The translations under genes were made by a program, and so were the position numbers. Shown piece after piece: positions 7,553 to 29,931 of a stretch of DNA of 64,000 bases; the first letter of the stretch is position 1, and the number at the start of each line of letters is the position of its first letter. A model generated the notes under the pieces. That model had not been told where the DNA came from, did not search any database, and saw only the letters and a list, made by a program, of their open reading frames with translations. The stretch is from positions 166,340 to 230,339 of the forward strand of contig JBMORT010000006.1 of NCBI GenBank assembly GCA_049319825.1. Reading direction: 5' to 3'. Origin of the DNA: Patescibacteria group bacterium (lineage in GTDB: Bacteria; Patescibacteriota; Patescibacteriia; UBA11705; DATKZF01).

Positions 7553-7773
7553 AAATTGATATTACAAGATGACGAGATTTACTGTACAAGATGGTACGAG
7601 ATGACTTTTATATCAGGGCGAAATTTATAATCCGAATACCCCGAAATGCGGCTAATGCAGAATTTAAAATTCGAGCTTCGATACCGATAACCATCATTGT
7701 TATGTGCTCCATCACGCGTTCGCGAAAGACGTGATCCATGCTCCATGATACGGGATCCAGGATATCATCGCTT

Positions 7774-13277: not shown

Positions 13278-13351
13278 TGGCTCGGGGACAGGGATTCGAA
13301 CCCCGATAGCCAGGACCAAAACCTGGAGTCCTACCATTAGACGATCCCCGA
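13278..13351 (-). tRNA. tRNA-Gln (anticodon TTG), CCA encoded
   Basis: Hand-folded. Acceptor stem TCGGGGA/TCCCCGA, D-stem GTCT/GGAC, anticodon stem CCAGG/CCTGG, loop TTTTGGT, T-arm CGGGG-TTCGAAT-CCCTG, discriminator G and a 3' CCA. Length 74 nt. Confidence 0.85.
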
Positions 13352-13634
13352 ATGTAAGAAATTGGAAATTGGAAACTAGAAATTATAATTTTAAAAATTT
13401 CAAAAACTACAAATATTATACTGGATAAAGAAAGTTTTGTCAAACAATTTTAGCTTTACTTTTCCCTTCGTTTATAGTAAAATTAGACTTGATTATATTG
13501 TGATTTGGATTAAATTATTTAAATTTTCAATTGCGTGATGAGAAAAATTAATAAATAAAAATCTCATTGAAACGCTAACAAGAATAGCTAATGTTCTAAA
13601 TGTTGGCACTGATGATTTAATAAAATAAAAAAAC

Positions 13635-14387
13635 ATGGCAGAACTAACCACAATTGAAAAACAGATTCTTGAAAAGCTCTTTCAAATGGGCGGTGGTTAC
13701 GTTTTAAATTTTTCTGACAGAACAATGGGTGAATTTTTCAGAGACGATGTTGGACTAGATATTTACACTCAGAAATACAATTACGCAAGCGGCTCAAAAG
13801 CCAATCGTATGCGTGGTCTATGGTTAAAAGCAGACAATAAAACGGTAGGAAACTCTATATTAAAACTTATTGAATACATTGAAAGTCAAATTTTGATTGA
13901 TGAACTTTCCCGTGATGATTTTCCCGAAGATAGAATAAAGGCCGCCAAAGAGATAGTTGACAAATTGTTAGGGAAAAAGAGTAAGCCAAAAGATAGTAAA
14001 TCGAAAGCTACTTTTAAAAATGGCAATATTAACATTACTTTACAAAAAGATATTTTTGATCATGTCCAAAAATTATTGAATAGCGGGCATTATTTCAATG
14101 CAGTCGAAGAAGCATACAAAATTGTTAGAAAAAAACTAAAAGATATTACTGGAAAAGAAAAAGCGACGGACGCTTTTAACAGTTCAAATTATGAAAAAAT
14201 TTTTGGCCATCAGCCTGTAGAGCAAGCTGAGAAAGATTTTTTTGAGGGCGTAAAATTTTTACATATGTCTATTCAATTTTTACGAAATGAGAAAGCGCAT
14301 ACGCCAGCGCGTGATTTGGACAAAAATTTAGCAATTCATTATATATCGCTCGCCAGTTTAGCGTATGATTTAATCACTAGAAAGTGA
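13635..14387 (+). CDS. HEPN-domain protein, TIGR02391/Abi-like (putative abortive-infection RNase)
   Basis: The C-terminal domain carries the Rx4H HEPN motif (FLRNEKAHT) in a TIGR02391-like context (GHYFNAVEEAYKIVRKKL). It is the first gene of the AT-rich island. Confidence 0.6.
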   Translation: MAELTTIEKQILEKLFQMGGGYVLNFSDRTMGEFFRDDVGLDIYTQKYNYASGSKANRMRGLWLKADNKTVGNSILKLIEYIESQILIDELSRDDFPEDRIKAAKEIVDKLLGKKSKPKDSKSKATFKNGNINITLQKDIFDHVQKLLNSGHYFNAVEEAYKIVRKKLKDITGKEKATDAFNSSNYEKIFGHQPVEQAEKDFFEGVKFLHMSIQFLRNEKAHTPARDLDKNLAIHYISLASLAYDLITRK

Positions 14388-14393
14388 ATTATT

Positions 14394-15422
14394 ATGGCAC
14401 ATAAACACTTACACAAGGCAGGCCGTGCGAAGAATGATGAGTTTTATACCCAGCTCGTTGACATTGAAAAAGAGCTTAAATACTACAAAGAACAATTCCG
14501 TGGCAAGGTTGTGTACTGTAATTGCGATGATCCTTTTGAAAGTAATTTTTTCAAGTATTTCGCTGCCAATTTTAATGCATTAGGACTCAAGAAACTCATC
14601 ACAACGAGTTACAATAAATCACCGATTGCAGGTAGACAGTTGCCCTTGTTTGAAATGGAGGGGTTGAAATCTATAAAGCCTATAGACGCAGAGCCCTACA
14701 AAATTGAAATAAATGAAGTATCCGATATTAACAACGATGGCGCGATAAATCTCGAAGACGTTGAACAATTAATAAAGCATGAGAAAAACATCGCAACCCC
14801 CTTGCGTGGTAACGGTGATTTCCGCAGTGACGAGTGTATTGAGCTACTCAAGCAAGCCGATATAGTCGTGACTAACCCTCCATTTTCACTATTCCGTGAG
14901 TATGTCGCCCAGCTTGTGAAATATAAAAAAAAGTTTTTGATTATAGGTAATACAAATGCCCTAACTTATAAAGAGATTTTTAAATTAATTAAAGAGAATA
15001 AATTCCGCACTGGCTATACCAATTTTAATGTAGGTATGTTTTTTGTTGTACCAGACGATTGGGAACATTTTCACCATGTCGATAAAGATGGCAAAAAAAT
15101 TGCGCGAGTCTCAACATCATGCTGGTTTACAAATCTTGAAGTTGAAAAACACAAGGAAGATATCATTCTTTACAAAAAATATACACCCGAAGAGTATCCA
15201 AAATATGACAACTATAATGCAATCAATGTAAATAAATACACAGATATTCCCTATGATTACACTGGGTATATTGGCGTACCAATCACTTTTATCGATAAAT
15301 ATAATCCTGAACAGTTTGAAATAGTGAGATTTCGAAAAGGTAATGATGATAAAGACTTATCAATAAATGGAAAATATACCTATTTTAGAATTATTATAAA
15401 AAATAAGAAAGTTAAAAAATAA
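14394..15422 (+). CDS. DNA N6-adenine methyltransferase, EcoRI-methylase-like family
   Basis: N-terminal KNDEFYTQ...VVYCNCDDPFESNFFKYF and catalytic motif IV TNPPFS. The resemblance to M.EcoRI is recalled from memory, not searched. Confidence 0.7.
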   Translation: MAHKHLHKAGRAKNDEFYTQLVDIEKELKYYKEQFRGKVVYCNCDDPFESNFFKYFAANFNALGLKKLITTSYNKSPIAGRQLPLFEMEGLKSIKPIDAEPYKIEINEVSDINNDGAINLEDVEQLIKHEKNIATPLRGNGDFRSDECIELLKQADIVVTNPPFSLFREYVAQLVKYKKKFLIIGNTNALTYKEIFKLIKENKFRTGYTNFNVGMFFVVPDDWEHFHHVDKDGKKIARVSTSCWFTNLEVEKHKEDIILYKKYTPEEYPKYDNYNAINVNKYTDIPYDYTGYIGVPITFIDKYNPEQFEIVRFRKGNDDKDLSINGKYTYFRIIIKNKKVKK

Positions 15423-15423
15423 T

Positions 15424-16533
15424 ATGAAAATAGAGCTTCATCAAATTCCAATTGGCAAAGTCATCGCCGGTTACAAGGATAGCGCCGAAGAAGGTGTCGT
15501 GGCTTATGACGGTAAGCTTGATATTCGCCCAAAGTATCAGAGAGAATTTGTGTACAATGAAAAACAGCGCAATGCCGTGATTGAAACCGTTAAGCAAAAC
15601 TTCCCGCTCAACGTAATGTACTGGATGGTTCGCGAAGACGGTGGCTATGAAATGCTGGACGGTCAGCAACGTACCATCAGTATTGGGCAGTATGTGAATG
15701 GTGACTTCTCGCTCGAAAATCGTTTTTTCCATAATTTAACACCTGAAGAACAAGATCAGATTTTGGATTATGAATTAATGATTTACTTTTGTGAAGGTAC
15801 GGATAAGGAAAGATTAGATTGGTTTAAAACAATCAATATAGCCGGTGAAAAATTAACCGACCAAGAAATTCGTAATGCGGTTTACACAGGGCCGTGGCTT
15901 TCTGACGCTAAATTGAAGTTTAGCAAAACACAGTGTGCGGCATATCGTTTAGCGACCGACGGCGGAAAGTTAGTCAGCGGTTCTCCAATCCGTCAAGAAT
16001 ATTTAGAAGCCGCGCTTTCATGGATAAACAACGGCGAAGTTGCGGATTACATGGCGAAGCATCAGCACAACAAAAATGCTAATCAGTTGTGGGAATATTT
16101 CCAAGATGTCATTGCGTGGGTGCGTAAAACTTTTCCAAATTACCGAAAAGAAATGGCAAGCGTAAATTGGGGCGAATTATACAACAAATTCAAAAAAAAG
16201 AAGCTAAACGCCGAAAAACTAGAAGCCGAAATTGCCAAGTTAATGCAGGATGAGGATGTAACAAAAAAATCTGGCATATATCCTTATGTACTCACAGGAG
16301 AAGAAAAACACCTTTCTATTCGCGCGTTCACCGACAAAATGAAGCGGGAAGCATACGAGCGGCAAAAAGGTGTTTGCCCTTGGTGCAAAAAAGAGAAGAA
16401 AGAAAAACAAAAATGGGAAATTGAAGAAATGGAAGCCGACCATATTAAGCCTTGGCACGAGGGCGGAAAAACAACCGCAGAGAATTGCCAAATGTTATGC
16501 AAACAAGATAACCGAACTAAATCGGGGAAGTAA
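15424..16533 (+). CDS. DUF262 (ParB/GmrS-like, DGQQR motif) N-domain fused to a C-terminal HNH nuclease
   Basis: DGQQRT motif and a C-terminal CPWC...ADHIKPWHEGGKTTAENCQMLCKQDN HNH motif. The start is 2 nt after the methyltransferase stop. Confidence 0.8.
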   Translation: MKIELHQIPIGKVIAGYKDSAEEGVVAYDGKLDIRPKYQREFVYNEKQRNAVIETVKQNFPLNVMYWMVREDGGYEMLDGQQRTISIGQYVNGDFSLENRFFHNLTPEEQDQILDYELMIYFCEGTDKERLDWFKTINIAGEKLTDQEIRNAVYTGPWLSDAKLKFSKTQCAAYRLATDGGKLVSGSPIRQEYLEAALSWINNGEVADYMAKHQHNKNANQLWEYFQDVIAWVRKTFPNYRKEMASVNWGELYNKFKKKKLNAEKLEAEIAKLMQDEDVTKKSGIYPYVLTGEEKHLSIRAFTDKMKREAYERQKGVCPWCKKEKKEKQKWEIEEMEADHIKPWHEGGKTTAENCQMLCKQDNRTKSGK

Positions 16534-16640
16534 AAATTGGAATAGGGTGTGTATAATTTTCTTTACATGACTCTTGACAAAAAATTCTACATCGCTTACA
16601 ATGGAGGTGTAAGTATTATTAAATAATTTCCATTAACACT

Positions 16641-16853
16641 ATGGATAGAAAACGAAAAGCAGACCACGAAAAAATAAAGAAAATTTTAGAAAAACGTGGT
16701 TATAAAAACGGTGAACCACCACGTGGATATGAGGTGCACCACATCAAACCACTTGCAGAAGGCGGAAAGGATACACCTAAAAATATTCGGGTAATAAAAA
16801 TAATAAAACACAAACAAATACACGCTAATCGTAAAGAAAGAAGTAAAATTTAA
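16641..16853 (+). CDS. mini HNH endonuclease (70 aa)
   Basis: The motif EVHHIKPLAEGGKDTPKNIRV...H resembles the HNH core of the upstream gene (HIKP-EGGK-T--N). Confidence 0.6.
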   Translation: MDRKRKADHEKIKKILEKRGYKNGEPPRGYEVHHIKPLAEGGKDTPKNIRVIKIIKHKQIHANRKERSKI

Positions 16854-16855
16854 TT

Positions 16856-17623
16856 ATGTTTGGAAAATTTATCCAACATCAACGTACCAAGCGAAATATG
16901 ACACAGGAATATCTTGCGTCAGAGCTTGATATGTCTCGTCCCACTTATTTACAGATTGAACGCGGGGAGCGAGAGCTTACGATTTCCGAAGCAAAAAAGC
17001 TGGCGGCTCTTTTTGACATGCCGCTTGAAAATTTTCTTGCTGCCAGAGAACCAAAACGAAGTGTTGCCATTGAAAAAGAATCGGTAAAAAAAACTGAAGA
17101 CTTGCAGATTCGCGTTACAGAAAAAAACCTTGATAAATTCAAGCAGGTTTTGCTTTATGTTTTGAATAAGGTTGGTGGCAAGCCAAATGTTGGTGAAACA
17201 GTTTTGCATAAACTTCTTTATTTTATCGATTTTGACTACTACGAGAAGTTTGAAGAAAACTTAATGGGTGCAACTTATATCAAAAATCATCACGGTCCCA
17301 CTTCTATCGAGCTCGGCACAATTATAGAGGAAATGCAGACGCAGGGTGAGTTAGAAGCTGTAAAGAGTCAGTATTTTAAGTATTTACAAAAAAAGTATCT
17401 GCCGCGAAAACGTCCTAATCTCGATATTCTTTCCGCGCGAGAAATTGAGCACATTGATGATGTACTTGCTCGTCTTTCAGACAAAAATGCTGCGGAAATA
17501 GAAAATTATTCACACGAGGACATTCCTTGGAAATCTGCGCAGGACGGCAAGCCGCTTTCTTACGAGAGCGTTTTCTACCGCGACGAGCGATACTCCGTAA
17601 GAAACTATGACGATAAACTTTAA
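16856..17623 (+). CDS. HTH-XRE + Panacea/SocA (DUF4065) domain protein, PanA-type antitoxin candidate
   Basis: N-terminal XRE HTH (MTQEYLASELDMSRPTYLQIERGER). Panacea-like core VGGKPNVGETVLHKLLYFIDFDYYEKFEENLMGATYIKNHHGP. Starts 3 nt after the mini-HNH stop. Confidence 0.65.
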   Translation: MFGKFIQHQRTKRNMTQEYLASELDMSRPTYLQIERGERELTISEAKKLAALFDMPLENFLAAREPKRSVAIEKESVKKTEDLQIRVTEKNLDKFKQVLLYVLNKVGGKPNVGETVLHKLLYFIDFDYYEKFEENLMGATYIKNHHGPTSIELGTIIEEMQTQGELEAVKSQYFKYLQKKYLPRKRPNLDILSAREIEHIDDVLARLSDKNAAEIENYSHEDIPWKSAQDGKPLSYESVFYRDERYSVRNYDDKL

Positions 17624-17951
17624 TGAGCTTCCCGAATTTCAAAAAGAATTCAAGCGGCTTGGCAAAAAATATAAATCTCTCCCCGATGACTTGCAAGAAT
17701 TCTGCAATGTGGTTTCTGTTGTTCCGCTTGGCAATAGTAAACATTTTAACATCATTACCCAAACTAAACTTTTTTGCATTATAAAAGCTCGCTTGTTCTG
17801 TAGATATTTGAAAGGAACCTCGCTCCGCATTATTTATTCTTATTTTGAGCAGAAACAATGTATTGAATTTATTGAATTATATTTTAAAGGTGATAAAGAA
17901 ACCGAAGATCGTGATAGAATAAAAGAATATTTGAAAAATAATCAGAACTAA
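17607..17951 (+). CDS. RelE/ParE-superfamily toxin-like protein
   Basis: 114 aa with a ...KARLFCRYLKGTSLRIIYSYFEQKQCIEFIELYFKGDK pattern. It overlaps the Panacea gene by 17 nt. Confidence 0.45.
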   Translation: MTINFNELPEFQKEFKRLGKKYKSLPDDLQEFCNVVSVVPLGNSKHFNIITQTKLFCIIKARLFCRYLKGTSLRIIYSYFEQKQCIEFIELYFKGDKETEDRDRIKEYLKNNQN

Positions 17952-19679: not shown

Positions 19680-19721
19680 TCAAAAAAACCGCGACTTAAG
19701 GCGGTTTTTATTTTTAAAAAA

Positions 19722-21662
19722 TTATTGGCTTTGGTATGTTTTGATGAATTCCAGAGTTTTCTTTTGAGTCTCCATTGCTTGTTGGGCAGACCGCTCATGT
19801 GGAGCAATCAGTTCCGACATCGACGATTTATCTGATAAAAAATTCATTTCGTCCAGCGCCCGTCGAGCCGCCGCGACATGAACTAAAATTTCATCGCAAG
19901 ACGAAATGATCGTCTGCGTCCAAAAAATTTCCTGCAGGGCGGGCAGCTGAGCTTTAATGTTTATCGACCTTTTTGGCACCTTTTCTCTCCATGCAGAGAG
20001 CAGAAAGGCGCCGGTCGCGCTGATGTGGCCTTTTTTCAAATCATCTTCCCAATCGTGCGCGTCGTCGTTCAACTGTTTGGCGATGATGTAGTGTTTAAAA
20101 AATTCCATCAAATTTCTTATTTCCGGGCTCTCTTTTTCAAATCCTTGCAGCAACAGGATGGCCACCGGCCCGAGCGCGTGGCCGAGCGATCGTTCGGCCA
20201 GTTTGGAATAATCTTGAAAATCGGGCAACTGGTCGGGAATATGCAGGGTGGCGTCCACCACCAGCGCGCGGCAGTTTTGGATTTCCCATGAATTGGCATT
20301 GTCCAGATTTTTCATAGTTTCATGAAAGATTTCGGCGATCTGCTTATTTTTCTCGGACAGCTTCAGGTAAATGCCGGTAAGCTCGCGCAGGCAGAGTGTG
20401 CCGGTGGGCAAGAGCCGCGGATCGCCTTCATCGTCCAAAAAATCATCAAATACGGTGTAAGCGGTCCAGCCGAGCAGATTAGCCACTCCCAGCTTGACGA
20501 TATCGCTGTCATCGATTTTATTTTTTTCGGATAAACATTGATAAAAATAATAAGGCAGCAGCACCACTTGTTTGTCTTGGTCGGCGCGGATCATCTTTTC
20601 CAAAACCGGCAGAGAAATTTTTTCCGTATCGGCGGGGAACATCTTTTTCGTGTCCGCGATGATTTTTTCGTAGATGCCAATTTGTTTTTCATCGACGTGT
20701 ATCGTTTTTGTTGAATTAGCGGCGGATATAAATTTAAATAGCGCTTCCAGGCAAAAGGCGCCGGTCAAAGCTCTCGCTCCGGAAAAATGGGTCTGGCCGT
20801 CTATGGCCGGATCAATGCAGAAAGCCTGTGCCGGCCAGGCTCCGTTTGCCTGAGCGGAAAGTATGAAATCAACGGAATTTCGGTGCGGCTTAAGCGCTTC
20901 TCCCAGATTGGCCAGGCTGGAAATCGCCAAGGCGGTGTCTAGGGAGTTCTCGTTCCATGAGCCATTTTCTTTTTTATTTTTTAAAATATAATCGATTAAA
21001 GCATTTTTTTTGCGGCCTCGATAAAACCTTGAGATAAAATAAATAATCGGCCAGGGAGTCGGGTAGTATGGGGATGTGAATTTTTTTTGATCAATGGAGT
21101 CTTCCGCCATGATCACGATATTGGGAAGTTCGACATCATTTAACGATAGAAAATACGCGACGTTGCTGTTCACTGCCAAATCAATGTCTTGCCAGACCCG
21201 ATCTTCGGTGGCCGGAACCAGCCAAGTGCGGTAAGGGCCGCCTTCTTTGGATTCGACGGCAGTCAACAGGGCGACGATCATCGCCAATGCTTGCCCGTCA
21301 ATTATTTCCGGATCATATTTTTGCAGCGCGGCCAAGGCGCAAAATGTGTCGTCCAGGTCATCCGGGTAGGGCAGTAAGCGGGCTTCTTTAGAATCGCGCG
21401 CCCAGTAATTAAAAGACCAGTGGTCGCTTTTATTTTTACATAAAAATTCAGCCAGTCCGGATTTTACCGCCTTGAGAGTTGAATTTTCGTCTAGCTCGTT
21501 TAAGGCGGATAGAATCAGCGCGCTGGTAAAAATCGGCTGATATGTTTTCGCCCGGGTAAAGTCGTCGGCATCGGCTGTAGAAAAACCAAAAAATGAGCCG
21601 TCAGAGTTTTGCTCATTTTTAAGATATTCGATTCCGTTTTTAATGGAGTTATGTATGTTCAT
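19722..21662 (-). CDS. two-domain isoprenoid protein: N-terminal prenyltransferase/squalene-hopene-cyclase-like alpha-toroid fused to a C-terminal DDxxD isoprenoid-synthase-like domain
   Basis: N-domain has QW-like repeats (EQNSDGSF, KENGSW) and a DLDDT motif (cf. the SHC DxDDTA motif). C-domain has VFDDFLDDEGD (DDxxD-like) and NDDAHDWEDD (NSE/DTE-like). The ATGA overlap with the histidine kinase stop indicates translational coupling. Confidence 0.55.
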   Translation of the reverse strand: MNIHNSIKNGIEYLKNEQNSDGSFFGFSTADADDFTRAKTYQPIFTSALILSALNELDENSTLKAVKSGLAEFLCKNKSDHWSFNYWARDSKEARLLPYPDDLDDTFCALAALQKYDPEIIDGQALAMIVALLTAVESKEGGPYRTWLVPATEDRVWQDIDLAVNSNVAYFLSLNDVELPNIVIMAEDSIDQKKFTSPYYPTPWPIIYFISRFYRGRKKNALIDYILKNKKENGSWNENSLDTALAISSLANLGEALKPHRNSVDFILSAQANGAWPAQAFCIDPAIDGQTHFSGARALTGAFCLEALFKFISAANSTKTIHVDEKQIGIYEKIIADTKKMFPADTEKISLPVLEKMIRADQDKQVVLLPYYFYQCLSEKNKIDDSDIVKLGVANLLGWTAYTVFDDFLDDEGDPRLLPTGTLCLRELTGIYLKLSEKNKQIAEIFHETMKNLDNANSWEIQNCRALVVDATLHIPDQLPDFQDYSKLAERSLGHALGPVAILLLQGFEKESPEIRNLMEFFKHYIIAKQLNDDAHDWEDDLKKGHISATGAFLLSAWREKVPKRSINIKAQLPALQEIFWTQTIISSCDEILVHVAAARRALDEMNFLSDKSSMSELIAPHERSAQQAMETQKKTLEFIKTYQSQ

Positions 21663-23128
21663 ATAGATTTTTCGATCGTTCCATGAATAGTGAATATCGA
21701 GCCGCGGCCTTTTTCGCTGTTAACCGAGATCGATCCGCTAAAATCGTTTTCGATTATTTTTTTCACGGTGGTCAGTCCGATGCCCGTGCCCTTGCCGATC
21801 GGTTTGGTAGTGTAAAGCGGCTCGAATATCTTTTCCAGATTCTCCGGCTCGATACCGCAGGCAAAGTCCTGAATGGATATGGCAAATCTGGCATCTTGTT
21901 TAGTCAGCGTGATAATTATTTTTTTGCCGGGCGTGTCGACTCCTTCATAGGCATCAATGGCGTTAGATATCAGGTTGGTGATGATTTGATTGAATTTGAG
22001 CGGATTGCCGAAAGTAAAAATTTCTTTTTCGGCATTGAATTCAATGCTGATTTTTTGTTTTCTGGCTTGATATTCCAGGACATCAATCGAATTTTCTATT
22101 TCTTCATTTAACGAGAATGTTTCTTTTTGTTCTTGCTGGCTGTATTGCTTTTTAATCGCTTGAATGAATTTTTCCAGTTTTCTGCTGGCGCTGAGCGCTC
22201 GTTGCAGGCACGATTTGGTTTCGCTGACATTTTCTTTTTGGTCATCGTTGACCTGGCTGAGATTAAGCGAGATGGCGGTCAGGGGACTGGCCAGATCGTG
22301 GAACAGCCCGGATGACAGGCGGCCGAATTCCGCGAAGCGGTCCATTTGGGTCATTTTTTCGATCTGTGCCTGCTTTAATTCTTTGGTGCGCTCGTCAACT
22401 CTGATTTCCAGCAGGTCGCGTTCTTTTTTTAATTCCGCTTCTGATTTTCGCGCGCGGCGCAAGGATTTTTCAATTTCTCGGTTAAAGAGCCAAGAGACGA
22501 TTGAGATGATTATTAATGTCACGACAATTATGATTATGTCTTCTGTTTTAGCAGTCGAGTCGTCAGCCCAATATAAGTCGGGATGAATAATATTTTTATC
22601 TTGTAAATAAGCAAGAAAAAATAGTATAGCTGATATTATCAATGTGATCACATAAGCGAATTTGGTATTGATTAATATTCCAGCCATAATTATGACTAGT
22701 GCGTATATTAACAGGCCTAATGGTAAATCCACTCCCCATATCACAAGGTTGTATGTTGCGGCTATTAAATATATAATTATTAAAATGTATGATGCCAATC
22801 GAGCGTATCCTTTTCTAGATAATAGATAGAGAGAAAAAAAACCAATAAAAATAAAAAATAGAAGGGCTGGAGGCGCGCCATAGTAGTTCGGTCTAAATAT
22901 TAGATATCCGCGAACCGTAATTAAAAACGCAAGAAAGGATAAAAAGGTTGAGCCGGAAACGATTATGTTTAAAATAAATTCCCGTCTGCTTAGATCTTCA
23001 TTTTTAGATTTGGGCTGTATTTCAGATAATAAAAAATGGACACACTTCTTTACTAGCAATGAAATGCGTTTTATCGTCTGACCTTTATTATCAGTGGATG
23101 TGTCCATTTTTTGTATTATTGGTACCAA
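21659..23128 (-). CDS. sensor histidine kinase (multi-TM sensor, HisKA H-box, HATPase_c)
   Basis: Six or more N-terminal TM helices, H-box FHDLASPLTAI and a G-box GTGIGLTTVKKII. The 5' end may be the TTG at 23128 or the ATG at 23107. Confidence 0.85.
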   Translation of the reverse strand: MVPIIQKMDTSTDNKGQTIKRISLLVKKCVHFLLSEIQPKSKNEDLSRREFILNIIVSGSTFLSFLAFLITVRGYLIFRPNYYGAPPALLFFIFIGFFSLYLLSRKGYARLASYILIIIYLIAATYNLVIWGVDLPLGLLIYALVIIMAGILINTKFAYVITLIISAILFFLAYLQDKNIIHPDLYWADDSTAKTEDIIIIVVTLIIISIVSWLFNREIEKSLRRARKSEAELKKERDLLEIRVDERTKELKQAQIEKMTQMDRFAEFGRLSSGLFHDLASPLTAISLNLSQVNDDQKENVSETKSCLQRALSASRKLEKFIQAIKKQYSQQEQKETFSLNEEIENSIDVLEYQARKQKISIEFNAEKEIFTFGNPLKFNQIITNLISNAIDAYEGVDTPGKKIIITLTKQDARFAISIQDFACGIEPENLEKIFEPLYTTKPIGKGTGIGLTTVKKIIENDFSGSISVNSEKGRGSIFTIHGTIEKSI

Positions 23129-23333
23129 GGTTTGGCGGATCCAGCCAAGCTCACGGCCAAAGCGCTTAATACACCCATGTTTCTGGCGCTTTTGCTGGTC
23201 AAGAGCTTTTTAATCAAATTTTTCATATTAATCTCCTGCTGCTTTGATGATCAAAGCATATTAGTTTGGCTGAGCCCACGACCTTTTTTGAATAAGCCCA
23301 GCAATTGTATCAGATGTTTTATAAAAAATAAAG

Positions 23334-24371
23334 TTATTTTTGCCGATTGACCACGAATTCGATCGCTTGCTCTATCAGCCGTTTAGCGGATTGATCCGGC
23401 AGATTTTTTGAGTATCCGCTGAATAAATCCGATGCCTGTTTGGCATATTGCCGCGCCAGATTTTTCGCGTAATCCATGCTTCCATATTTATGCATTAGCT
23501 CAAGCACTTTTTTGATTTCGTCTTCGGTTTTTGATTCTCGGTTTTTTACGAATATTTCAGTGATCGTTTGTTTCTCTTTGGCGTCGGCGCTTCGGAGCAG
23601 GTGGCCGAGTATCAGCGTGCGCTTGCCTTCCCAGATGTCGCCGGCGAATTCTTTGCCTTGGTTTTGCGATGTTTCGGTGACATTCATGACGTCATCGAAT
23701 ATTTGAAAGGCCAGTCCGAACGGCAATGTCCATTCTTCGATTTTGTTCATTGTTGAAATTGATCCGTAACCGGCGATGATGGCGGCCAGCTGCGTCGGCG
23801 CGGTGGTGGTGTAGGCCGCTGTTTTTTTCGATACCATGTTCAGGTATTCAACTTCGGAGACTTCAACGATTTTATTTTTTATCCAATTAAGCTCCATGAA
23901 CTGCCCTTCGGTGGTGGTCATCAGCGTTTCATTGAATTTGTCAAAAATTTCAAACCCGGTATCGCCGCGGTGATTTCTTGCAATATCGCCGATCATTTTC
24001 CACATTATCAAATGCAGCGCGTCACCGGCGTTAATGGCCGCTTCTTCGCCGTACATCAAATTCAGTGATAGCCGGTGCCGACGTTCCAGCGAGTGGTCTT
24101 CCACGTCGTCGTGAATCAGCAGCCAGTCTTCGGAAATCTGCAGCGCCGCCGCAATCGGCAGGGCGTCCTGCTCGCGGCCGCCGTGGAGTCTGGCCGAGAG
24201 CATCAGCAGCGCCGGTCGAAAATATTTGCCTTGCCGATGGGGATATTCATTGATCATCCGGTGATACGGATAGTTCGATTCCGCCGGCAAATATTTTTTT
24301 ACCTGATTCCACACCGCCTTTTTGTTTTCATCCAAAAAATTCAATAATTCATTTTCAGTTGTAGTTTCCAT
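23334..24371 (-). CDS. trans-polyprenyl diphosphate synthase (GGPP/FPP synthase family)
   Basis: FARM LLIHDDVEDHSLERR and SARM FQIFDDVMNV motifs. 345 aa. Confidence 0.9.
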   Translation of the reverse strand: METTTENELLNFLDENKKAVWNQVKKYLPAESNYPYHRMINEYPHRQGKYFRPALLMLSARLHGGREQDALPIAAALQISEDWLLIHDDVEDHSLERRHRLSLNLMYGEEAAINAGDALHLIMWKMIGDIARNHRGDTGFEIFDKFNETLMTTTEGQFMELNWIKNKIVEVSEVEYLNMVSKKTAAYTTTAPTQLAAIIAGYGSISTMNKIEEWTLPFGLAFQIFDDVMNVTETSQNQGKEFAGDIWEGKRTLILGHLLRSADAKEKQTITEIFVKNRESKTEDEIKKVLELMHKYGSMDYAKNLARQYAKQASDLFSGYSKNLPDQSAKRLIEQAIEFVVNRQK

Positions 24372-24460
24372 AATTACATTTTACGGAGTTCATTATAAAT
24401 TTTTAATAAATTTTTTTTAAAAATAAAAATGCCTTAAATAAGGCATTTTTAAATTATATT

Positions 24461-25135
24461 TTATCTTTTCACGTCCAGCTTGTAGCCTCTGCCCGGTATG
24501 GTGTGGATAAGTTTAGGTTTGCTTTTGACATCAATTTTTTTTCTCAGGCTTAAGATGTGAGATTCAATGGTGTTGGAAAACGGATCAGCGTCCACGTCCC
24601 AGACATGCTCCATGATCATGGCGCGCGACAGCACCTGCTGTTTATTCTTGAGCAAATATTCGAGAAGCATGAATTCTTTTCTTGTTAAATATATTTCTTT
24701 TTGTCCGCGCTTCACCAAATGCTTTTTAGGATCGACTGTCAGATCTTCAAATTCCAAAACTTCGTTTTCAATCACTCTCGGCCGCCGGAGCAGCGCTCTG
24801 ATTCTGGCCAGCAGCTCTTCTATTGAATACGGCTTGGTTAAGTAATCGTCGGCGCCCATATTGAAAAGCTCGACCTTGGTCGGTATCTCCGTTTGCACCG
24901 ACAAGACGAGTATCGGAAAATTTTTACCGGCTTCCCTGATATCTCGGCAGACCTCCTGGCCGGATTTATTGGGCATGATCAGATCCAAGATGACCAGATC
25001 ATAGTCATTGGTTCTGGCCAAAAAAGAGCCTTTTTCGCCATCTTCGGCCGTGTCCACGATAAAGCACTCGGATTCTAGCCCGGCTTTTAAAAATTCTCTG
25101 ATGTCTTTTTCATCTTCGACTACTAAAATTCTCAT
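24461..25135 (-). CDS. OmpR-family response regulator
   Basis: Receiver MRILVVEDE...DLVILDLIMP plus a winged-helix trans_reg_C domain. Confidence 0.9.
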   Translation of the reverse strand: MRILVVEDEKDIREFLKAGLESECFIVDTAEDGEKGSFLARTNDYDLVILDLIMPNKSGQEVCRDIREAGKNFPILVLSVQTEIPTKVELFNMGADDYLTKPYSIEELLARIRALLRRPRVIENEVLEFEDLTVDPKKHLVKRGQKEIYLTRKEFMLLEYLLKNKQQVLSRAMIMEHVWDVDADPFSNTIESHILSLRKKIDVKSKPKLIHTIPGRGYKLDVKR

Positions 25136-25278: not shown

Positions 25279-25998
25279 ATGATTAGCAGAAAAAAATTAA
25301 AATTTTCCATGTCCATATTATGCGTTGTTGGATCGGCCGATATTTTTGAAAATAAGTTTGGCGTGTTTCAGCGAACCGGAAACAGCACGGATATGATAGT
25401 TTGCGGCCGCCGCGCCGCCAATCAACTCATTAGCGATATTAACGGCCGTCTGAAAAAGTGCTACAATATCATAATTTTTGATTGCCCGATTGATAATGAC
25501 ATTGCCAAACACGTGATTAAGCGGATCAGAAGCGTCACCGATACTCCGATATTATTCGCGTTGTCAGAAAAAGATCCGAAATTCGCTGCTGAAATCATCG
25601 ATTGCGGGGCGGACATGGTGATCGGCAAAAAATTCAGCTCTAGCGAATTGATCGCGCGAGTGAATTCATTGATGACGCGGTCAACGCGTTTGAATTTTAA
25701 ATTTTGCTGGGCGGAAATAGGACGATTGAGAATTGATTTGAGGAATCGAATCGTGGAGGTTGAGGGAAAGACCGTGCATCTGACAAAAGCGGAATATCGA
25801 TTATTGTCCCATCTGTTGATTAACTGCGGGCGTATCGTTAAGAAATCCGAGCTTATCAAATATCTTAATAAAAGCGATCTGGAGCGGGCTGATCATCTTT
25901 TAAACATGCATATATCTAATATTAGAAAAAAACTTGGCGGGATAGTGGAAATTTCATCGATTTCCAAGGAAGGTTTTTATATCAAGGAGACAAAATGA
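25279..25998 (+). CDS. OmpR-family winged-helix regulator with a degenerate (pseudo-)receiver domain
   Basis: The C-terminal trans_reg_C domain is clear (VHLTKAEYRLLSHLLINCGRIV). The N-domain is receiver-like but the acidic pocket and Asp spacing are non-canonical (IIIFDCPIDN). Confidence 0.6.
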   Translation: MISRKKLKFSMSILCVVGSADIFENKFGVFQRTGNSTDMIVCGRRAANQLISDINGRLKKCYNIIIFDCPIDNDIAKHVIKRIRSVTDTPILFALSEKDPKFAAEIIDCGADMVIGKKFSSSELIARVNSLMTRSTRLNFKFCWAEIGRLRIDLRNRIVEVEGKTVHLTKAEYRLLSHLLINCGRIVKKSELIKYLNKSDLERADHLLNMHISNIRKKLGGIVEISSISKEGFYIKETK

Positions 25999-26038
25999 AT
26001 TTGGGAGGCCCGCGATTCGTGAAATCGCAGGCCGCCGG

Positions 26039-26245
26039 TCAGCCCGTTCGTTTGAGCAGAATTCGATCGCTTTCATCCCAGCCAAGAACCAAATCCTCCG
26101 GATCCAGCCGGCCGATCATTCGGCGGCTGATATGTGGACAACTTTCTTCGGCGGTTTGGCAGAAAGTACAGCGTCCGATGAGAGCTTGTCTTGGACAGGG
26201 TGGATTGTTTTCCACCAAGAAACAAGCGTACATGGCCGTTTTCAT
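26039..26245 (-). CDS. small Cys-containing protein (68 aa), hypothetical
   Basis: Strong RBS (CAGGAGGTTCGC-ATG). Codon usage resembles neighbours, unlike the overlapping plus-strand ORF. Contains CPRQ...CTFCQ...CPH cysteines. Divergent from the HD-GYP gene. Confidence 0.45.
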   Translation of the reverse strand: MKTAMYACFLVENNPPCPRQALIGRCTFCQTAEESCPHISRRMIGRLDPEDLVLGWDESDRILLKRTG

Positions 26246-26437
26246 GCGAACCTCCTGCGTGAAATGGCGATTTACTTACAATATATATCTATTTTATAAA
26301 TTGAAATATAAGAAAAAAATAAAGTTTTTATCACGAAAAAATTGAATAATATTTCATATTTTTTTTATTTGGCTGATATTACTATTTGATTATAGTGAAA
26401 TCAGATCATTGACATGCAAAAAAGGAGGGGAGTGGAA

Positions 26438-27403
26438 ATGGCGGGACCAGGCAGAGTCAACGGCGATTTCAATGACATGTTCAAATTTTTGCCTGAAGCG
26501 ATATTGGTAATCGACCCGCAGGGAAATATTTTGGCCAGCACGTACAATCTCAATGGATTATTCGGCTACGCGTCAACAGCCAGTTTGAGCGGCATGAGCC
26601 TGTTTGATTTTGTGGCGCCGATTGAGCGGACGCAGGTGGAAATCGATTTGAATCAGGTGATTGGCGGCGAAGACGGCTGCGATCATTTGTATCTTCATGT
26701 CCGAAAAAATCAAACACTGTTTTCCGCGCGCTGGAAGGTGAGCGTCTGTCGGGACGAAACCGATGATCCGAAACTGCTGCTGATATCGATCAGAGAAAAA
26801 AGCGTTTATGCGAGTGTCGAGCAAAATAATTTGATTGAAAATGTCATTCGAGCGGTCGCGTATGTCATCGAGATGAGAGATAAATACACGGCCAGACATC
26901 AGCGACGAGTGGCGCAGCTGGCCCACCAAGTCGGCCGGATTATGGCTCTGCCGCGAAGCGAGATCGTTTTGATTCACATGGAATCGCTGATTCATGATAT
27001 CGGTAAAATTTGCGTGCCGGCGGAATATCTAAGCAAGCCGGATCGATTGACCGACGCGGAATTCGGAGTGATCAGAGCTCATCCGTCCGCGGGTCGCGAT
27101 ATTTTGGAAACCCTTGATTGCCCGGCGTCGATGATCGCGGCCGTGTTTGAGCACCATGAACGGCTCGACGGCAGCGGATACCCAAGAGGTATCGCCGGCG
27201 AACAAATTTGCGCATCGGCGAAAATATTGGCTGTCTGCGATGTGGTGGAGGCGATTTCGTCTCATCGGCCGTATCGGCCGGCGCTGGGGCTGGATCGAGC
27301 GCTCGAAGAAATCACCCAAGGTCGGGGCGTTCTGTACGAAAGCCAATTGGTCGACGCTTGCGTGGAGATATTCACCAAAAATAATTTTAAGTTTTGTCAG
27401 TAA
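26438..27403 (+). CDS. PAS-domain HD-GYP phosphodiesterase (c-di-GMP signalling)
   Basis: HD-GYP core HQRRVAQLAHQVG...HDIGK...HHERLDGSGYPRG with an N-terminal PAS-like region. I place the start at ATG 26438, preceded by AAGGAGGGGAGTGGAA. The ORF-track start at 26414 lies inside the RBS. Confidence 0.85.
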   Translation: MAGPGRVNGDFNDMFKFLPEAILVIDPQGNILASTYNLNGLFGYASTASLSGMSLFDFVAPIERTQVEIDLNQVIGGEDGCDHLYLHVRKNQTLFSARWKVSVCRDETDDPKLLLISIREKSVYASVEQNNLIENVIRAVAYVIEMRDKYTARHQRRVAQLAHQVGRIMALPRSEIVLIHMESLIHDIGKICVPAEYLSKPDRLTDAEFGVIRAHPSAGRDILETLDCPASMIAAVFEHHERLDGSGYPRGIAGEQICASAKILAVCDVVEAISSHRPYRPALGLDRALEEITQGRGVLYESQLVDACVEIFTKNNFKFCQ

Positions 27404-27410
27404 GGTTGTC

Positions 27411-27689
27411 GTGGTTGCCGAACCCGCTACGGTAGTCGATACGGATCTTTCTTTATGCGAGCAGTGCGACCGCGCATTGGTTTGCGCGGTGTGCGGTCGC
27501 CGGCTCTGCCACCCAATCGATGCGGTCAACTGTTTCGCCGCCGAACGTTACAGCAGCCTGTTCGAAAGCGAATGCGTCGATTGTTACGAATCGTATCAAG
27601 AGGCGCTTAGAAGCTGGACCTGCTTTAGCTTCGGCATTTCTCCTCGGCGGTCCGATCAAAATTTGAAACTTATAAAGCAAGATACATAA
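27411..27689 (+). CDS. possible small Cys-rich (zinc-ribbon-like) protein, GTG start
   Basis: CEQCDRALVCAVCGRRLCHPIDAVNCFAAERYSSLFESECVDCYESY has 9 Cys. TAAGG lies upstream of the GTG. It sits directly downstream of the HD-GYP gene. Uncertain. Confidence 0.3.
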   Translation: MVAEPATVVDTDLSLCEQCDRALVCAVCGRRLCHPIDAVNCFAAERYSSLFESECVDCYESYQEALRSWTCFSFGISPRRSDQNLKLIKQDT

Positions 27690-27743
27690 ATCTTGCTTTT
27701 TTAAAATTATTAATTTTTTTGATATACTGATTATAAGAATCTT

Positions 27744-28583
27744 ATGAAAAAAACAAAAATAAAAAAATGGAATTTCATTTACGTTTTGTTTCTTATCATT
27801 TTAACTTTGTTTTTGCCGTTATTGGTTTCGATTGATGTCAGCAGCATCTGGCTGATCGCGTTGGGCACTTTTTTGATGTTTATTTTCGTGCTCTGGCACG
27901 CATTGCTGAAATTCGGAGTGAAAAATTCCATGATATTTTTAGGGCTGAGCTTGATAATCAGCTTCTTGGCCGAATATTTCGGAGTCAACTGCGGGTATAT
28001 GTTCGGCGGCGGCTATCATTATGCCGATTATTTGATGCCCAAACTGCTTGGCGTGCCAGTGCTGGTGATCATCATGTGGCTGGCGATCATTTACATTTGC
28101 TACCAGCTGGCCGAGCATATTACTGATTTTAGTTTTAAAAAACAGACGCCGCTTGGCCGAAAATTTATTGTCAGCGCCGCGGCTTCTTTGCTGACCGCGC
28201 TGGCTGCGGTCGCCTGGGATCTGACCATGGATCCGCTGGCGGTTTCCGCCGGCTGGTGGACTTGGGCAGCGGATCATGCGGGATCGCGATTATTAGGAGT
28301 GCCGGTCGGCAATTTCATGGGCTGGGTGATCGTCTCTTTCGCCATCGTTTTAATTTACAAATTATTTATCGAAACAGAGACCAAGGAAAAGGAAAGCCGC
28401 TTCGAATTCGCGCCGGCGATCGCTTATGGACTTTTATGGCTGGATACCTTTGTCTGGGCGATTCAATATGATCGAAGCGATTTGGCGATTTTATCGGCCA
28501 TGGTCATGTGGCCGCTGTTACTGATCACGGTTATAAAATACTTGGTTAATAAATTCAATTTGCCGAAGCAATATAAGCGATGA
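27744..28583 (+). CDS. polytopic membrane protein, possibly DUF422 / carotenoid-biosynthesis-associated membrane protein family
   Basis: 6-7 TM helices with WDLTMDPLAVSAGWWTW and GVPVGNFMGWV motifs, which I recall as typical of PF04240-like proteins. The family assignment is tentative. Confidence 0.45.
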   Translation: MKKTKIKKWNFIYVLFLIILTLFLPLLVSIDVSSIWLIALGTFLMFIFVLWHALLKFGVKNSMIFLGLSLIISFLAEYFGVNCGYMFGGGYHYADYLMPKLLGVPVLVIIMWLAIIYICYQLAEHITDFSFKKQTPLGRKFIVSAAASLLTALAAVAWDLTMDPLAVSAGWWTWAADHAGSRLLGVPVGNFMGWVIVSFAIVLIYKLFIETETKEKESRFEFAPAIAYGLLWLDTFVWAIQYDRSDLAILSAMVMWPLLLITVIKYLVNKFNLPKQYKR

Positions 28584-28599
28584 AATTTTTTAATCCGAT

Positions 28600-29931
28600 A
28601 TGCCCAAAAAAAACAATCAAGCCTGGGTTGTCGCCGTCACTATGGGTTATGGCCATCAGCGCGCCGCCTACCCGTTGAAGGATATCGCCTGCGACCAAAT
28701 CATTACCGCCAATGATTATCCCGGTATTCCCAAAAAAGATGAAAAGGTCTGGCGCCGGAGTCGGTCTTTTTATGAATTTGTGTCGCGGCTCAAGCATATT
28801 CCCGCTTTGGGCACCAGTATTTTTAATTTTTACGATAAACATTTTCAATCAATCGATCCGTTTTATCCGCGCCGCGACTTATCCGCCGCCTCCTTTCAGC
28901 TCAAGCAGATTTATCGATTGATGGCCGGCGGCTGGGGCCGGCATCTTGTCGATTATTTGAATTGCGCCGATATTCCGATGATCACCACGTTTTTCGTGCC
29001 CGCTTTTTTTGCCGAGTTCCATCATTTTAGAAATGACATTTACGTGGTGGCCACCGATACCGATGTCTCCAGAACCTGGGCACCGCTCGAGCCGAAAAAA
29101 AGTCGGATAAAATATTTCGCGCCGACCAAAAGAGTGGTTGATCGGTTGGTAGAATACGGTATTAAAAAAGAAAATATATTTTTAACCGGTTTTCCGCTGC
29201 CCAAAGAAAATATCGATGGCCGGAACATGACCACCCTCAAGCGTTCGCTGGGTCGAAGGATCTGCAATCTTGATCCACAGAACATTTATCGTCATAAATA
29301 CTCAAATACCATCAATGACAATTTGCCGGCCGGCTGCGTGCCCAAAACCTCGAGCGCGCCCCTGACCATCACTTTCGCGGTCGGCGGCGCCGGCGCTCAG
29401 CGTGAAATCGGCGGAGCGATCGTTTGGGCACTGAAAAATAAGATAGCCAAGGGCCTGGTGAAAATAAATTTGGTGGCCGGAGTCAGAAATGAAATTTATA
29501 AATATTTTGAAGCGGTTTTAAAAAAACATCAATTGATGAGCGATAAAAGCAAGGCGAATATCATTTATTCGACAGATTTTCAGCAATACATCAAGGAATT
29601 CAATCAAGCATTGATCACCACCGATATTTTATGGACCAAGCCCAGTGAATTGTCTTTTTATTGCGGACTCGGCATTCCGATTATCATGGCTCCGCCGGTG
29701 GGCGCGCAAGAAACATTTAACCGCATGTGGCTGGCATCGATCGGCGCCGGTATGGATCAGCTCGATCCGCAGTATGCCAATCAATGGCTGTTCGACTGGC
29801 TGGATTCAGGCTGGCTGGCCGAAGCGGCCATGGAAGGTTATCTCGATGCCCATAAATTCGGTACTAAAACCATCGAGTCGATCATTTCCGGCAAGATCAA
29901 GAAGGCGGAGGAGTTGCCGCAGCTAATGTAG
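28600..29931 (+). CDS. GT-B fold glycosyltransferase (MurG / MGDG-synthase / UgtP-like, GT28-type)
   Basis: N-terminal TMGYGHQRAAYPL glycine-rich loop and a C-terminal MurG-like donor-binding region SELSFYCGLGIPIIMAPPVGAQETFN. Confidence 0.65.
   Translation: MPKKNNQAWVVAVTMGYGHQRAAYPLKDIACDQIITANDYPGIPKKDEKVWRRSRSFYEFVSRLKHIPALGTSIFNFYDKHFQSIDPFYPRRDLSAASFQLKQIYRLMAGGWGRHLVDYLNCADIPMITTFFVPAFFAEFHHFRNDIYVVATDTDVSRTWAPLEPKKSRIKYFAPTKRVVDRLVEYGIKKENIFLTGFPLPKENIDGRNMTTLKRSLGRRICNLDPQNIYRHKYSNTINDNLPAGCVPKTSSAPLTITFAVGGAGAQREIGGAIVWALKNKIAKGLVKINLVAGVRNEIYKYFEAVLKKHQLMSDKSKANIIYSTDFQQYIKEFNQALITTDILWTKPSELSFYCGLGIPIIMAPPVGAQETFNRMWLASIGAGMDQLDPQYANQWLFDWLDSGWLAEAAMEGYLDAHKFGTKTIESIISGKIKKAEELPQLM

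What the first reader, a model, noticed from the sequence alone, without database searches (positions are those of the whole stretch)
19722..25135. Isoprenoid operon embedded in a two-component system, ending in a fused SHC-like / DDxxD-synthase-like protein
On the minus strand the order is response regulator, polyprenyl diphosphate synthase, a possible 36-aa peptide, histidine kinase, and a 646-aa protein whose ATG overlaps the kinase stop (ATGA).

The 646-aa protein combines two parts. Its N-terminal region is a prenyltransferase/squalene-hopene-cyclase-type alpha-toroid (QW-like repeats, DLDDT). Its C-terminal region carries DDxxD-like (FDDFLDDE) and NSE/DTE-like (NDDAHDWEDD) signatures of class I terpene synthases or head-to-head prenyl synthases.

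A bacterial class II-like plus class I-like fusion, translationally coupled to a sensor kinase, is not a standard arrangement. It may make a cyclised or condensed terpenoid such as a membrane lipid or signal. A DUF422-like membrane protein gene at 27744 is nearby.
Basis: partly seen in the sequence, partly recalled or inferred. Interest (0 to 1): 0.65.

Follow-up and report, generated by a model that had tools for sequence, protein, structure and literature searches.

The report
Peptide prenylation-cyclisation signalling cassette in Patescibacteria
The fused "cyclase plus synthase" protein is real, but it most likely attaches and then cyclises a terpene chain on the single tryptophan of the 36-residue peptide encoded beside it. 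Together with the kinase and regulator it forms a four-gene, pheromone-like cassette conserved across the tiny, mostly uncultured Patescibacteria (CPR).

Summary

The 646-aa protein gives a confident model (pLDDT 92.9) with two domains:

The decisive point is the "possible 36-aa peptide". It is present in 73 of 73 testable loci across Patescibacteria, always just upstream of the kinase. It has a conserved N-terminal part, a hypervariable middle and an invariant Trp near the C-terminus.

Regulator, peptide, multi-pass kinase and fusion enzyme form a conserved module. A short-chain prenyl synthase joins it in 14 of 82 loci.

The arrangement matches two known things: fused prenyltransferase-cyclase peptide maturases (ChrPC/NctPC, Hubrich 2024) and the logic of Bacillus ComQXPA and Paenibacillus PalPXQ. 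I read it as a new, CPR-wide, kinase-coupled variant of that kind. The chemistry and the signalling role are inferred, not shown.

The parts
24461..25135 (-). OmpR-family response regulator, the first gene of the module
   Evidence: Pfam Response_reg 4e-28 and Trans_reg_C 1.9e-25. An orthologue sits next to the module in 67 of 82 loci.
24424..24451 (-). Terminator-like hairpin after the regulator gene, followed by a promoter-like site at 24392-24421
   Evidence: Consensus scan only. Not tested further.
23334..24371 (-). Canonical short-chain trans-prenyl diphosphate synthase, the likely supplier of farnesyl diphosphate (FPP) or geranylgeranyl diphosphate (GGPP)
   Evidence: PF00348 1.8e-54. 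The best NCBIfam hits are IdsA and GGPP synthase, both below cutoff. It has GKxxR, FARM (first aspartate-rich motif) followed by RR, and SARM (second aspartate-rich motif) followed by GK, with Trp at position -5 before FARM. An IPPS is adjacent to the module in 14 of 82 loci, in two different positions.
23279..23289 (-). AAAAAAGGTCG motif in the peptide gene's 5' region
   Evidence: (A)AAGGTCGA recurs 26-59 nt upstream of the peptide ATG in 27-29 of 73 loci, against a background of 0.65 GGTCG per kb. No consensus RNA structure was found. Its role is unknown.
23116..23226 (-). 36-aa precursor-like peptide MKNLIKKLLTSKSARNMGVLSALAVSLAGSAKPWYQ. The Trp34 codon is at 23125-23127.
   Evidence: An AGGAG Shine-Dalgarno sequence lies upstream. 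A profile HMM finds exactly one copy, always just upstream of the kinase, in 73 of 73 loci that have upstream DNA. M1, L9, R15 and W34 are invariant. 71 of 73 peptides have a single Trp, and Pro precedes it in 55 of 73. Mean identity is 45% for residues 1-16 and 17% for residues 17-31. There is no Pfam or NCBIfam family.
21659..23107 (-). Sensor histidine kinase with 5-6 transmembrane helices and no large external domain
   Evidence: HATPase_c 4.3e-22 and a weak HisKA hit. Hydropathy and a 76-sequence alignment place the start at the ATG at 23107. A full-length orthologue lies directly upstream of the fusion gene in 78 of 81 loci.
20709..21662 (-). N-terminal domain of the 646-aa protein (residues 1-318): a single-domain class II terpene cyclase. 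PDDLDDT is at 21345-21365.
19725..20696 (-). C-terminal domain (residues 323-646): trans-IPPS-fold prenyltransferase-like domain. DDFLD is at 20433-20447 and QLNDDAHD at 20052-20075.
19684..19709 (.). Bidirectional terminator-like hairpin closing the operon
   Evidence: Consensus scan only.

Best explanation
The region is a four-gene cassette, plus a prenyl-donor gene in this genome.

Proposed mechanism, step by step:
1. The 36-aa ORF encodes a precursor peptide. It has a conserved N-terminal recognition part, a hypervariable middle and one invariant Trp near the C-terminus.
2. The 646-aa protein is a bifunctional peptide maturase.
3. Its C-terminal domain has the trans-IPPS fold. It keeps the Mg2+/diphosphate-binding DDxxD and the Gln-preceded second Asp-rich motif, but has lost the isopentenyl diphosphate (IPP) site. 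It transfers a farnesyl or geranylgeranyl group, made by the neighbouring synthase, onto that Trp. ComQ, PalQ and the P domain of ChrPC do the same.
4. Its N-terminal class II cyclase domain then protonates the distal double bond of the attached chain, using D104 of PDDLDDT positioned by Y200. This folds the chain into a polycyclic terpenoid, as the C domain of ChrPC/NctPC does.
5. The lipidated peptide is probably released. It would be sensed in or at the membrane by the polytopic kinase, which signals through the OmpR-type regulator. That makes it a ComQXPA/PalPXQ-like autoinducer circuit.

Shown here:
- the genes and the two folds;
- motif conservation;
- the universal four-gene linkage.

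Inferred, not shown:
- that the peptide is the substrate;
- the order of prenylation and cyclisation, and the chain length;
- export of the product;
- that the product is the kinase's ligand.
For: - Confident two-domain model: pLDDT 92.9, pTM 0.82.
- N-terminal domain: homologous to the AsDMS class II domain (E 1.4e-12) and structurally closest to monodomain class II cyclases including MstE. The catalytic Asp and Tyr are conserved.
- C-terminal domain: trans-IPPS fold with an intact FARM (first aspartate-rich motif) and a Gln-preceded SARM (second aspartate-rich motif). It lacks the GKxxR and RRG motifs that all 14 neighbouring bona fide IPPS carry.
- Peptide: present in 73 of 73 testable loci, with an invariant single Trp 2-7 residues from the C-terminus. 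It shows a leader-like conservation pattern.
- Linkage: kinase directly upstream of the enzyme gene in 78 of 81 loci, regulator next to the module in 67 of 82 loci, IPPS recruited in two different positions.
- Precedents: ChrPC and NctPC are fused prenyltransferase-cyclase maturases that act on Trp, with MstE-like cyclase domains (PMC13290415, citing Hubrich 2024). PalP-PalX-PalQ is a kinase, a precursor and an isoprenoid-synthase-fold Trp prenyltransferase (PMC10853753). ComQXPA and StheQ/StheX are further examples (PMC4008528; bioRxiv 10.64898/2026.08.29.745113).
Against: - No experiment or complex model links the peptide to the enzyme.
- The C-terminal domain shows no detectable sequence similarity to any PDB chain or to neighbouring IPPS. 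I could not compare it with ComQ, PalQ or ChrPC sequences.
- It keeps a full DDxxD SARM. The ComQ family instead has a pseudo-SARM, NDxxx.
- The near-constant spacing between the peptide's N-terminal motif and its Trp is unlike ComX. It could equally fit a small structural partner of the kinase.
- The kinase is HisKA type and the regulator OmpR type. ComP is HisKA_3 and ComA is LuxR type, so any likeness to ComQXPA is convergent.
- No conserved exporter or leader protease lies in the neighbourhood.
Confidence: 0.6

Rival explanations
1. The 646-aa protein is a free-terpenoid synthase. The class II domain cyclises FPP or GGPP. The alpha-fold domain then ionises or removes the diphosphate, giving a small lipid or volatile. 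The two-component system only regulates it, and the small peptide is an MgrB-like modulator of the kinase.
For: - Both catalytic motif sets are intact.
- A short-chain IPPS is adjacent in 14 of 82 loci.
- Class II plus class I-type fusions exist in plants and fungi (my own knowledge).
- The peptide's fixed length would suit a structural partner of the kinase.
Against: - The C-terminal domain is closest to prenyltransferases, not class I cyclases.
- The AsDMS diphosphate-binding arginines are replaced in the cyclase domain: W157, D159, P198 and A286 in the alignment, compared with PMC12365925.
- It does not explain an invariant Trp at a fixed position in a peptide that is otherwise hypervariable in its middle part.
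- All characterised trans-IDS-like non-elongating prenyltransferases of this kind target Trp (PMC13290415).
Confidence: 0.2
2. The C-terminal domain is a genuine chain-elongating prenyl diphosphate synthase. It feeds its product to the fused class II cyclase, like fungal PvCPS (a GGPP synthase fused to a class II cyclase).
For: - Both DDxxD motifs are intact.
Against: - There is no conserved basic residue where GKxxR lies, and xEG stands in place of RRG after FARM. All neighbouring true IPPS have both motifs.
- Profile comparison with those IPPS is not significant.
- A separate canonical IPPS is recruited next to the module in 14 loci, which would then be redundant.
Confidence: 0.07
3. The protein is a non-catalytic ligand-binding accessory of the kinase. 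It might, for example, sense a host-derived isoprenoid or polyprenyl phosphate.
For: - Tight translational coupling to the kinase across the whole radiation.
- Accessory proteins are common in two-component operons (my own knowledge).
Against: - Catalytic Asp motifs in both domains are invariant or nearly so across more than 1400 clusters at 50% identity. Pseudoenzymes usually lose them.
- The protein has no membrane segment.
Confidence: 0.05

Closest known systems
ChrPC / NctPC fused prenyltransferase-cyclase RiPP maturases (Hubrich et al., Chem 2024; known to me only through review PMC13290415)
   Same: - One polypeptide combines a prenyltransferase domain with an MstE-like monodomain class II cyclase. 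In ChrPC the prenyltransferase domain is trans-IDS-like.
- The substrate is a Trp in a ribosomal peptide.
- Donors are C10-C20, and the attached chain is then cyclised.
   Different: - Here the cyclase domain is N-terminal. I could not check the order in ChrPC.
- The precursor is a new family of about 36 aa.
- The system is hard-wired to a kinase and regulator and conserved across Patescibacteria.
Bacillus ComQXPA quorum-sensing locus
   Same: - Four adjacent same-strand genes: an IPPS-fold Trp prenyltransferase, a small precursor with Trp near its C-terminus, a polytopic membrane histidine kinase and a response regulator.
- The peptide and the kinase sensor domain are variable.
   Different: - Gene order here is regulator-peptide-kinase-enzyme.
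- The enzyme carries an extra class II cyclase domain and a full SARM instead of the pseudo-SARM NDxxx.
- The kinase is HisKA type with 5-6 TM helices, not HisKA_3 with 8-10. The regulator is OmpR type, not LuxR type.
- The peptide is 34-44 aa, not 52-73.
- The 2014 ComQXPA census found no locus outside Firmicutes (PMC4008528).
Paenibacillus PalP-PalX-PalQ cluster (PMC10853753)
   Same: A kinase, a Trp-containing precursor and an isoprenoid-synthase-fold Trp prenyltransferase sit in one cluster.
   Different: - PalX is an NHLP-type precursor with a strictly C-terminal Trp.
- PalQ has no cyclase domain.
AsDMS drimenol synthase (HAD-TCbeta; PDB 9mhs, 9m7d) and MstE (6sbb)
   Same: - Best sequence and structure match for the N-terminal domain, which is a single beta-type class II cyclase barrel.
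- The catalytic DxD motif and the Tyr partner are conserved.
   Different: - The fusion partner is an IPPS-fold domain, not a HAD phosphatase.
- The motif is DxDDT, not DxDTT.
- The AsDMS diphosphate-binding arginines are absent.
- A family-specific GGPYxTW insertion is present.
StheQ/StheX (Chloroflexi) and Ord1 indole prenyltransferase (bioRxiv 10.64898/2026.08.29.745113)
   Same: - All-alpha IPPS fold that uses FARM-Mg2+ to bind the donor.
- A Gln and Asp cluster at the SARM position lies near the indole.
- The adjacent small peptide has Trp near its C-terminus.
   Different: - Those enzymes are single-domain.

Membership tests
Monodomain class II terpene cyclase (TCbeta; AsDMS/MstE type) | alpha/alpha-barrel beta-domain fold | tested here: met
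   [not shown]
Monodomain class II terpene cyclase (TCbeta; AsDMS/MstE type) | DxDD / DxDTT general-acid motif with its Tyr partner | tested here: met
   PDDLDDT. D102 is 55/55, D104 is 54/55 and T106 is 55/55. D104 and Y200 align with AsDMS D333 and Y427.
Monodomain class II terpene cyclase (TCbeta; AsDMS/MstE type) | Protonation-initiated cyclisation activity | not testable with these tools
   Needs an enzyme assay.
trans-IDS-like Trp prenyltransferases (ComQ / PalQ / ChrPC P domain) | trans-IPPS all-alpha fold with a FARM DDxxD | tested here: met
   [not shown]
trans-IDS-like Trp prenyltransferases (ComQ / PalQ / ChrPC P domain) | Conserved Gln just upstream of the SARM or pseudo-SARM | tested here: met
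   Q530 is invariant, three residues before D533. This feature is also present in canonical IPPS, so it does not discriminate.
trans-IDS-like Trp prenyltransferases (ComQ / PalQ / ChrPC P domain) | No IPP condensation (IPP-binding basic motifs lost) | tested here: inconclusive
   There is no conserved Lys or Arg in residues 323-425, and xEG replaces RRG. The positional equivalence rests on motif spacing, not on a structural alignment.
trans-IDS-like Trp prenyltransferases (ComQ / PalQ / ChrPC P domain) | Adjacent gene for a small Trp-containing precursor | tested here: met
   73 of 73 testable loci, with Trp invariant.
trans-IDS-like Trp prenyltransferases (ComQ / PalQ / ChrPC P domain) | Sequence membership of the ComQ family (IPR033965; pseudo-SARM NDxxx) | tested here: not met
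   The second motif is a full DDxxD (D533, D534, D537) preceded by N532. No Pfam or NCBIfam ComQ-type hit reaches threshold.
Fused prenyltransferase-cyclase RiPP maturase (ChrPC type) | Prenyltransferase and MstE-like cyclase domains in one polypeptide, next to a Trp precursor | tested here: met
   The definition is taken from PMC13290415.
Fused prenyltransferase-cyclase RiPP maturase (ChrPC type) | Sequence homology to ChrPC | not tested
ComQXPA quorum-sensing system | ComP-type kinase (HisKA_3, PF07730, 8-10 TM) and ComA (LuxR/NarL-type regulator) | tested here: not met
   The kinase hits HisKA (PF00512, weak) plus HATPase_c and has 5-6 TM helices. The regulator is OmpR type, with Trans_reg_C.
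ComQXPA quorum-sensing system | Modified peptide acts as an extracellular signal for the kinase | not testable with these tools
   Needs genetics or biochemistry.
   [not shown]

The most novel reading that the evidence does not exclude
Patescibacteria as a group would use a ribosomal peptide carrying a cyclised terpenoid on tryptophan as a self- or host-directed pheromone. A dedicated membrane kinase would read it. This would be the first cell-cell signalling system defined for the radiation, and the first prenyltransferase-cyclase RiPP pathway hard-wired to a two-component system.
Probability: 0.35. Interest if true: 0.85.

Novelty: new variant of a known kind. Interest (0 to 1): 0.72.

Why it matters
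Patescibacteria are abundant, mostly uncultured, host-dependent bacteria with tiny genomes, and most of their conserved genes have no known function. This four-gene module is retained across Saccharibacteria, Microgenomates, Parcubacteria and CPR2. More than 1400 clusters at 50% identity carry the enzyme.

If the reading is right, it has four consequences:
- It gives these organisms a concrete, testable signalling system.
- It extends Trp-prenyl pheromone logic far beyond Firmicutes.
- It adds a large natural reservoir of prenyltransferase-cyclase enzymes and precursor peptides for peptide lipidation chemistry.
- It shows that reduced genomes still invest in a terpenoid pathway.

Tried and rejected
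- **Direct family searches.** Pfam and NCBIfam on the 646-aa protein gave only sub-threshold hits. Single-sequence phmmer against PDB found nothing.
- **C-domain against neighbouring IPPS.** Local and global hhalign were not significant. The link to IPPS is therefore structural only.
A class I cyclase or head-to-head synthase was rejected on the fold ranking.
- **Possible pathway genes in the window.** The PF04240 (CruF-like) gene, the DUF6938/MGDG-like gene, the PAS-HD-GYP gene, the MacB/HlyD exporter and the M16 peptidase were all considered. None is a conserved neighbour within 7 kb in the 81 related loci.
- **Palindrome at 23240-23258.** It is not recurrent in other loci.
- **GGTCGA motif.** It often sits in a hairpin loop in single-sequence folds, but RNAalifold found no consensus structure.
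- **Library searches that failed.** The afdb50 fold library was unavailable. The peptide alone was too short for a homologue search. The profile search found only 20 unnamed proteins.
- **Literature.** Searches for this family in CPR returned nothing. The primary ChrPC paper and the Hoshino review could not be opened.
- **Enzyme-peptide complex model.** Not attempted.

Full report
**Observation.**
- an OmpR-type response regulator (24461-25135);
- a polyprenyl synthase (23334-24371; PF00348, 1.8e-54);
- a 36-aa ORF (23116-23226) with an AGGAG ribosome-binding site;
- a histidine kinase, whose conserved start is the ATG at 23107, running to 21659;
- a 646-aa ORF (19722-21662), whose ATG overlaps the kinase TGA as ATGA.

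The window comes from a Patescibacteria MAG. The 646-aa protein is identical to an NCBI "hypothetical protein" of a "Patescibacteria group bacterium".

**The 646-aa protein.**
Direct Pfam, NCBIfam and PDB sequence searches give only sub-threshold hits. The family itself is large. More than 998 full-length homologues turned up in one search. An exhaustive profile search found 2927 clusters at 50% identity, 1408 of them at E<=1e-30, and nearly all of those listed are about 650 aa long.

A 55-sequence alignment gave an AlphaFold2 model with pLDDT 92.9 and pTM 0.82. It has two domains joined by a short low-confidence linker at residues 318-322.

**N-terminal domain.**
- The family profile hits the class II cyclase domain of drimenol synthase AsDMS at E 1.4e-12.
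- PDDLDDT is essentially invariant.
- In the alignment, D104 and Y200 fall on the AsDMS general acid D333 and its partner Y427. Both were shown to be essential by mutagenesis (PMC12365925).
- The four AsDMS arginines that hold the substrate diphosphate align with W157, D159, P198 and A286. This suggests a different head group.

**C-terminal domain.**
- No class I cyclase or squalene/phytoene synthase appears in the top lists.
- The two Asp-rich strings are invariant: D406, D410, and Q530-x-N-D533-D-x-x-D537. The second has the SARM (second aspartate-rich motif) pattern QxxDDxxD, not an NSE/DTE triad.
- The basic motifs that bind isopentenyl diphosphate (IPP) are absent. These are GKxxR about 40 residues before FARM (first aspartate-rich motif) and RRG just after it. 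All 14 canonical IPPS found next to the module carry them. In the C-terminal domain, no Lys or Arg is conserved between residues 323 and 425, and xEG replaces RRG.
- Profile-profile comparison with those IPPS is not significant. The relationship is one of fold.

My inference is that this domain binds a prenyl diphosphate but does not elongate it.

**Genomic context.**
A scan of species-representative genomes found 195 genomes encoding a relative. I analysed 80 loci, plus one obtained by exact look-up. They span Saccharibacteria (including a complete genome), Levyi-, Davies-, Shapiro-, Doudna-, Colwell- and Moranibacteria, Microgenomates, CPR2 and Paceibacterota.
- The orthologous full-length kinase lies directly upstream on the same strand in 78 of 81 loci. 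The other three start at a contig end.
- The kinase stop and the enzyme start overlap or lie within 30 nt in 48 of 65 measured cases.
- De novo clustering of all neighbours within 7 kb finds only four conserved families: the enzyme (82/82), the kinase (78), the regulator (67) and an IPPS (14).
- The IPPS sits between regulator and peptide in three loci, as in this window. In eleven loci it lies directly downstream of the enzyme gene. This suggests independent recruitment of a prenyl-donor supply.

**The small ORF.**
Scanning the region upstream of each kinase showed a 34-44 aa ORF, usually with a strong Shine-Dalgarno sequence. A profile HMM finds exactly one copy per locus in 73 sources. The nine without a hit all lack upstream DNA.
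- The peptides share invariant M1, L9, R15 and W34.
- 71 of 73 contain a single Trp. Pro precedes it in 55, and 1-6 residues follow it.
- Mean pairwise identity is 45% for residues 1-16 and 17% for residues 17-31. For comparison it is 47% for the regulator, 37% for the kinase and 39% for the enzyme.
- The peptide matches no Pfam or NCBIfam model. A database search found only 20 unnamed proteins.

**Interpretation.**
The combination here is a small precursor with Trp near its C-terminus, an IPPS-fold enzyme without an elongation site, a polytopic kinase and a regulator. That is the logic of Bacillus ComQXPA (PMC4008528, PMC5331326), Paenibacillus PalP-PalX-PalQ (PMC10853753) and StheQ/StheX (bioRxiv 10.64898/2026.08.29.745113).

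The added cyclase domain also has a direct precedent. Review PMC13290415 describes NctPC and ChrPC, from Hubrich et al. 2024. These are fused prenyltransferase-cyclase maturases. The prenyltransferase domain (trans-IDS-like in ChrPC) puts a C10-C20 chain on a peptide Trp. An MstE-like cyclase domain then cyclises that chain.

I therefore read the 646-aa protein as this kind of maturase, acting on the neighbouring peptide. The product would most plausibly serve as the ligand of the co-encoded membrane kinase. The missing diphosphate-binding arginines in the cyclase domain fit a peptide-attached substrate, but this point is an inference.

**Limits.**
- No experiment or complex model ties the peptide to the enzyme.
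- The ComQ-family hallmark pseudo-SARM is not present.
- The kinase and regulator belong to different subfamilies from ComP and ComA. The resemblance to ComQXPA is therefore functional and convergent, not membership.
- I could not obtain the ChrPC sequence or the primary paper. Homology to ChrPC, and whether CPR sequences were already noted there, remain open.
- The fixed spacing between the peptide's N-terminal motif and its Trp could also fit a small kinase-binding protein.

**Verdict.**
The best explanation, at confidence about 0.6, is a CPR-wide, kinase-coupled variant of the prenyltransferase-cyclase peptide-maturation systems.

Noticed in passing
window 23279-23289 (minus strand); for example L068 5541, L042 5299, L045 354: A conserved (A)AAGGTCGA motif lies 26-59 nt upstream of the peptide start in 27-29 of 73 loci. 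These are mainly loci without a strong Shine-Dalgarno sequence. It is often 12-20 nt after a TATAAT-like box and falls in the loop of a locally predicted hairpin. RNAalifold found no consensus structure.
   Followed up: partly
window 23240-23258: A perfect palindrome TGCTTTGAT-C-ATCAAAGCA ends 13 nt before the peptide ATG. No equivalent was found in other loci.
   Followed up: partly
window 25279-29931 (plus strand, divergent from the module): A run of signalling and lipid-type genes lies here: a regulator-like protein with a degenerate receiver domain, an unknown 116-aa ORF, a PAS plus HD-GYP (HD_5) protein, a PF04240 CruF/Caroten_synth membrane protein and a 443-aa DUF6938/MGDG-synthase-like protein. 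None is conserved next to the module elsewhere.
   Followed up: partly
window 13278-17951: A low-GC island (0.36-0.38) sits next to tRNA-Gln. It carries a Hypoth_Ymh protein, an EcoRI-type adenine methylase (E 3e-136), a GmrSD/HNH endonuclease and an HTH plus SocA/Panacea antitoxin. It is probably a mobile defence island.
   Followed up: no
window 30193-35655 and 39677-48109: Two giant ORFs. One is 1820 aa with no Pfam hit. The other is 2810 aa with seven or more DUF11 repeats and a C-terminal peptidoglycan-binding domain. Both are likely surface proteins.
   Followed up: no
window 4897-10587 and 35987-37255: A MacB-type exporter (two FtsX permeases, an ABC ATPase and a HlyD-like adaptor) and an M16 peptidase. 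These are the kinds of proteins that could export or process a peptide, but they are not linked to the module in other genomes.
   Followed up: partly
loci L007, L011, L022, L026, L039, L050, L062, L077 and others: Several MAGs carrying the typical CPR module are labelled Gammaproteobacteria, Vitreimonas, Methylomirabilota, Sulfotelmatobacter, Bacillota or Dormiibacterota in their record titles. The labels look like mis-assignments rather than real occurrences outside Patescibacteria. This was not verified.
   Followed up: no
homologues P0023, P0039, P0053, P0115-P0120: Some family members carry a precomputed hit to PF28380. That Pfam family is not in the local library, so I could not identify it.
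   Followed up: partly
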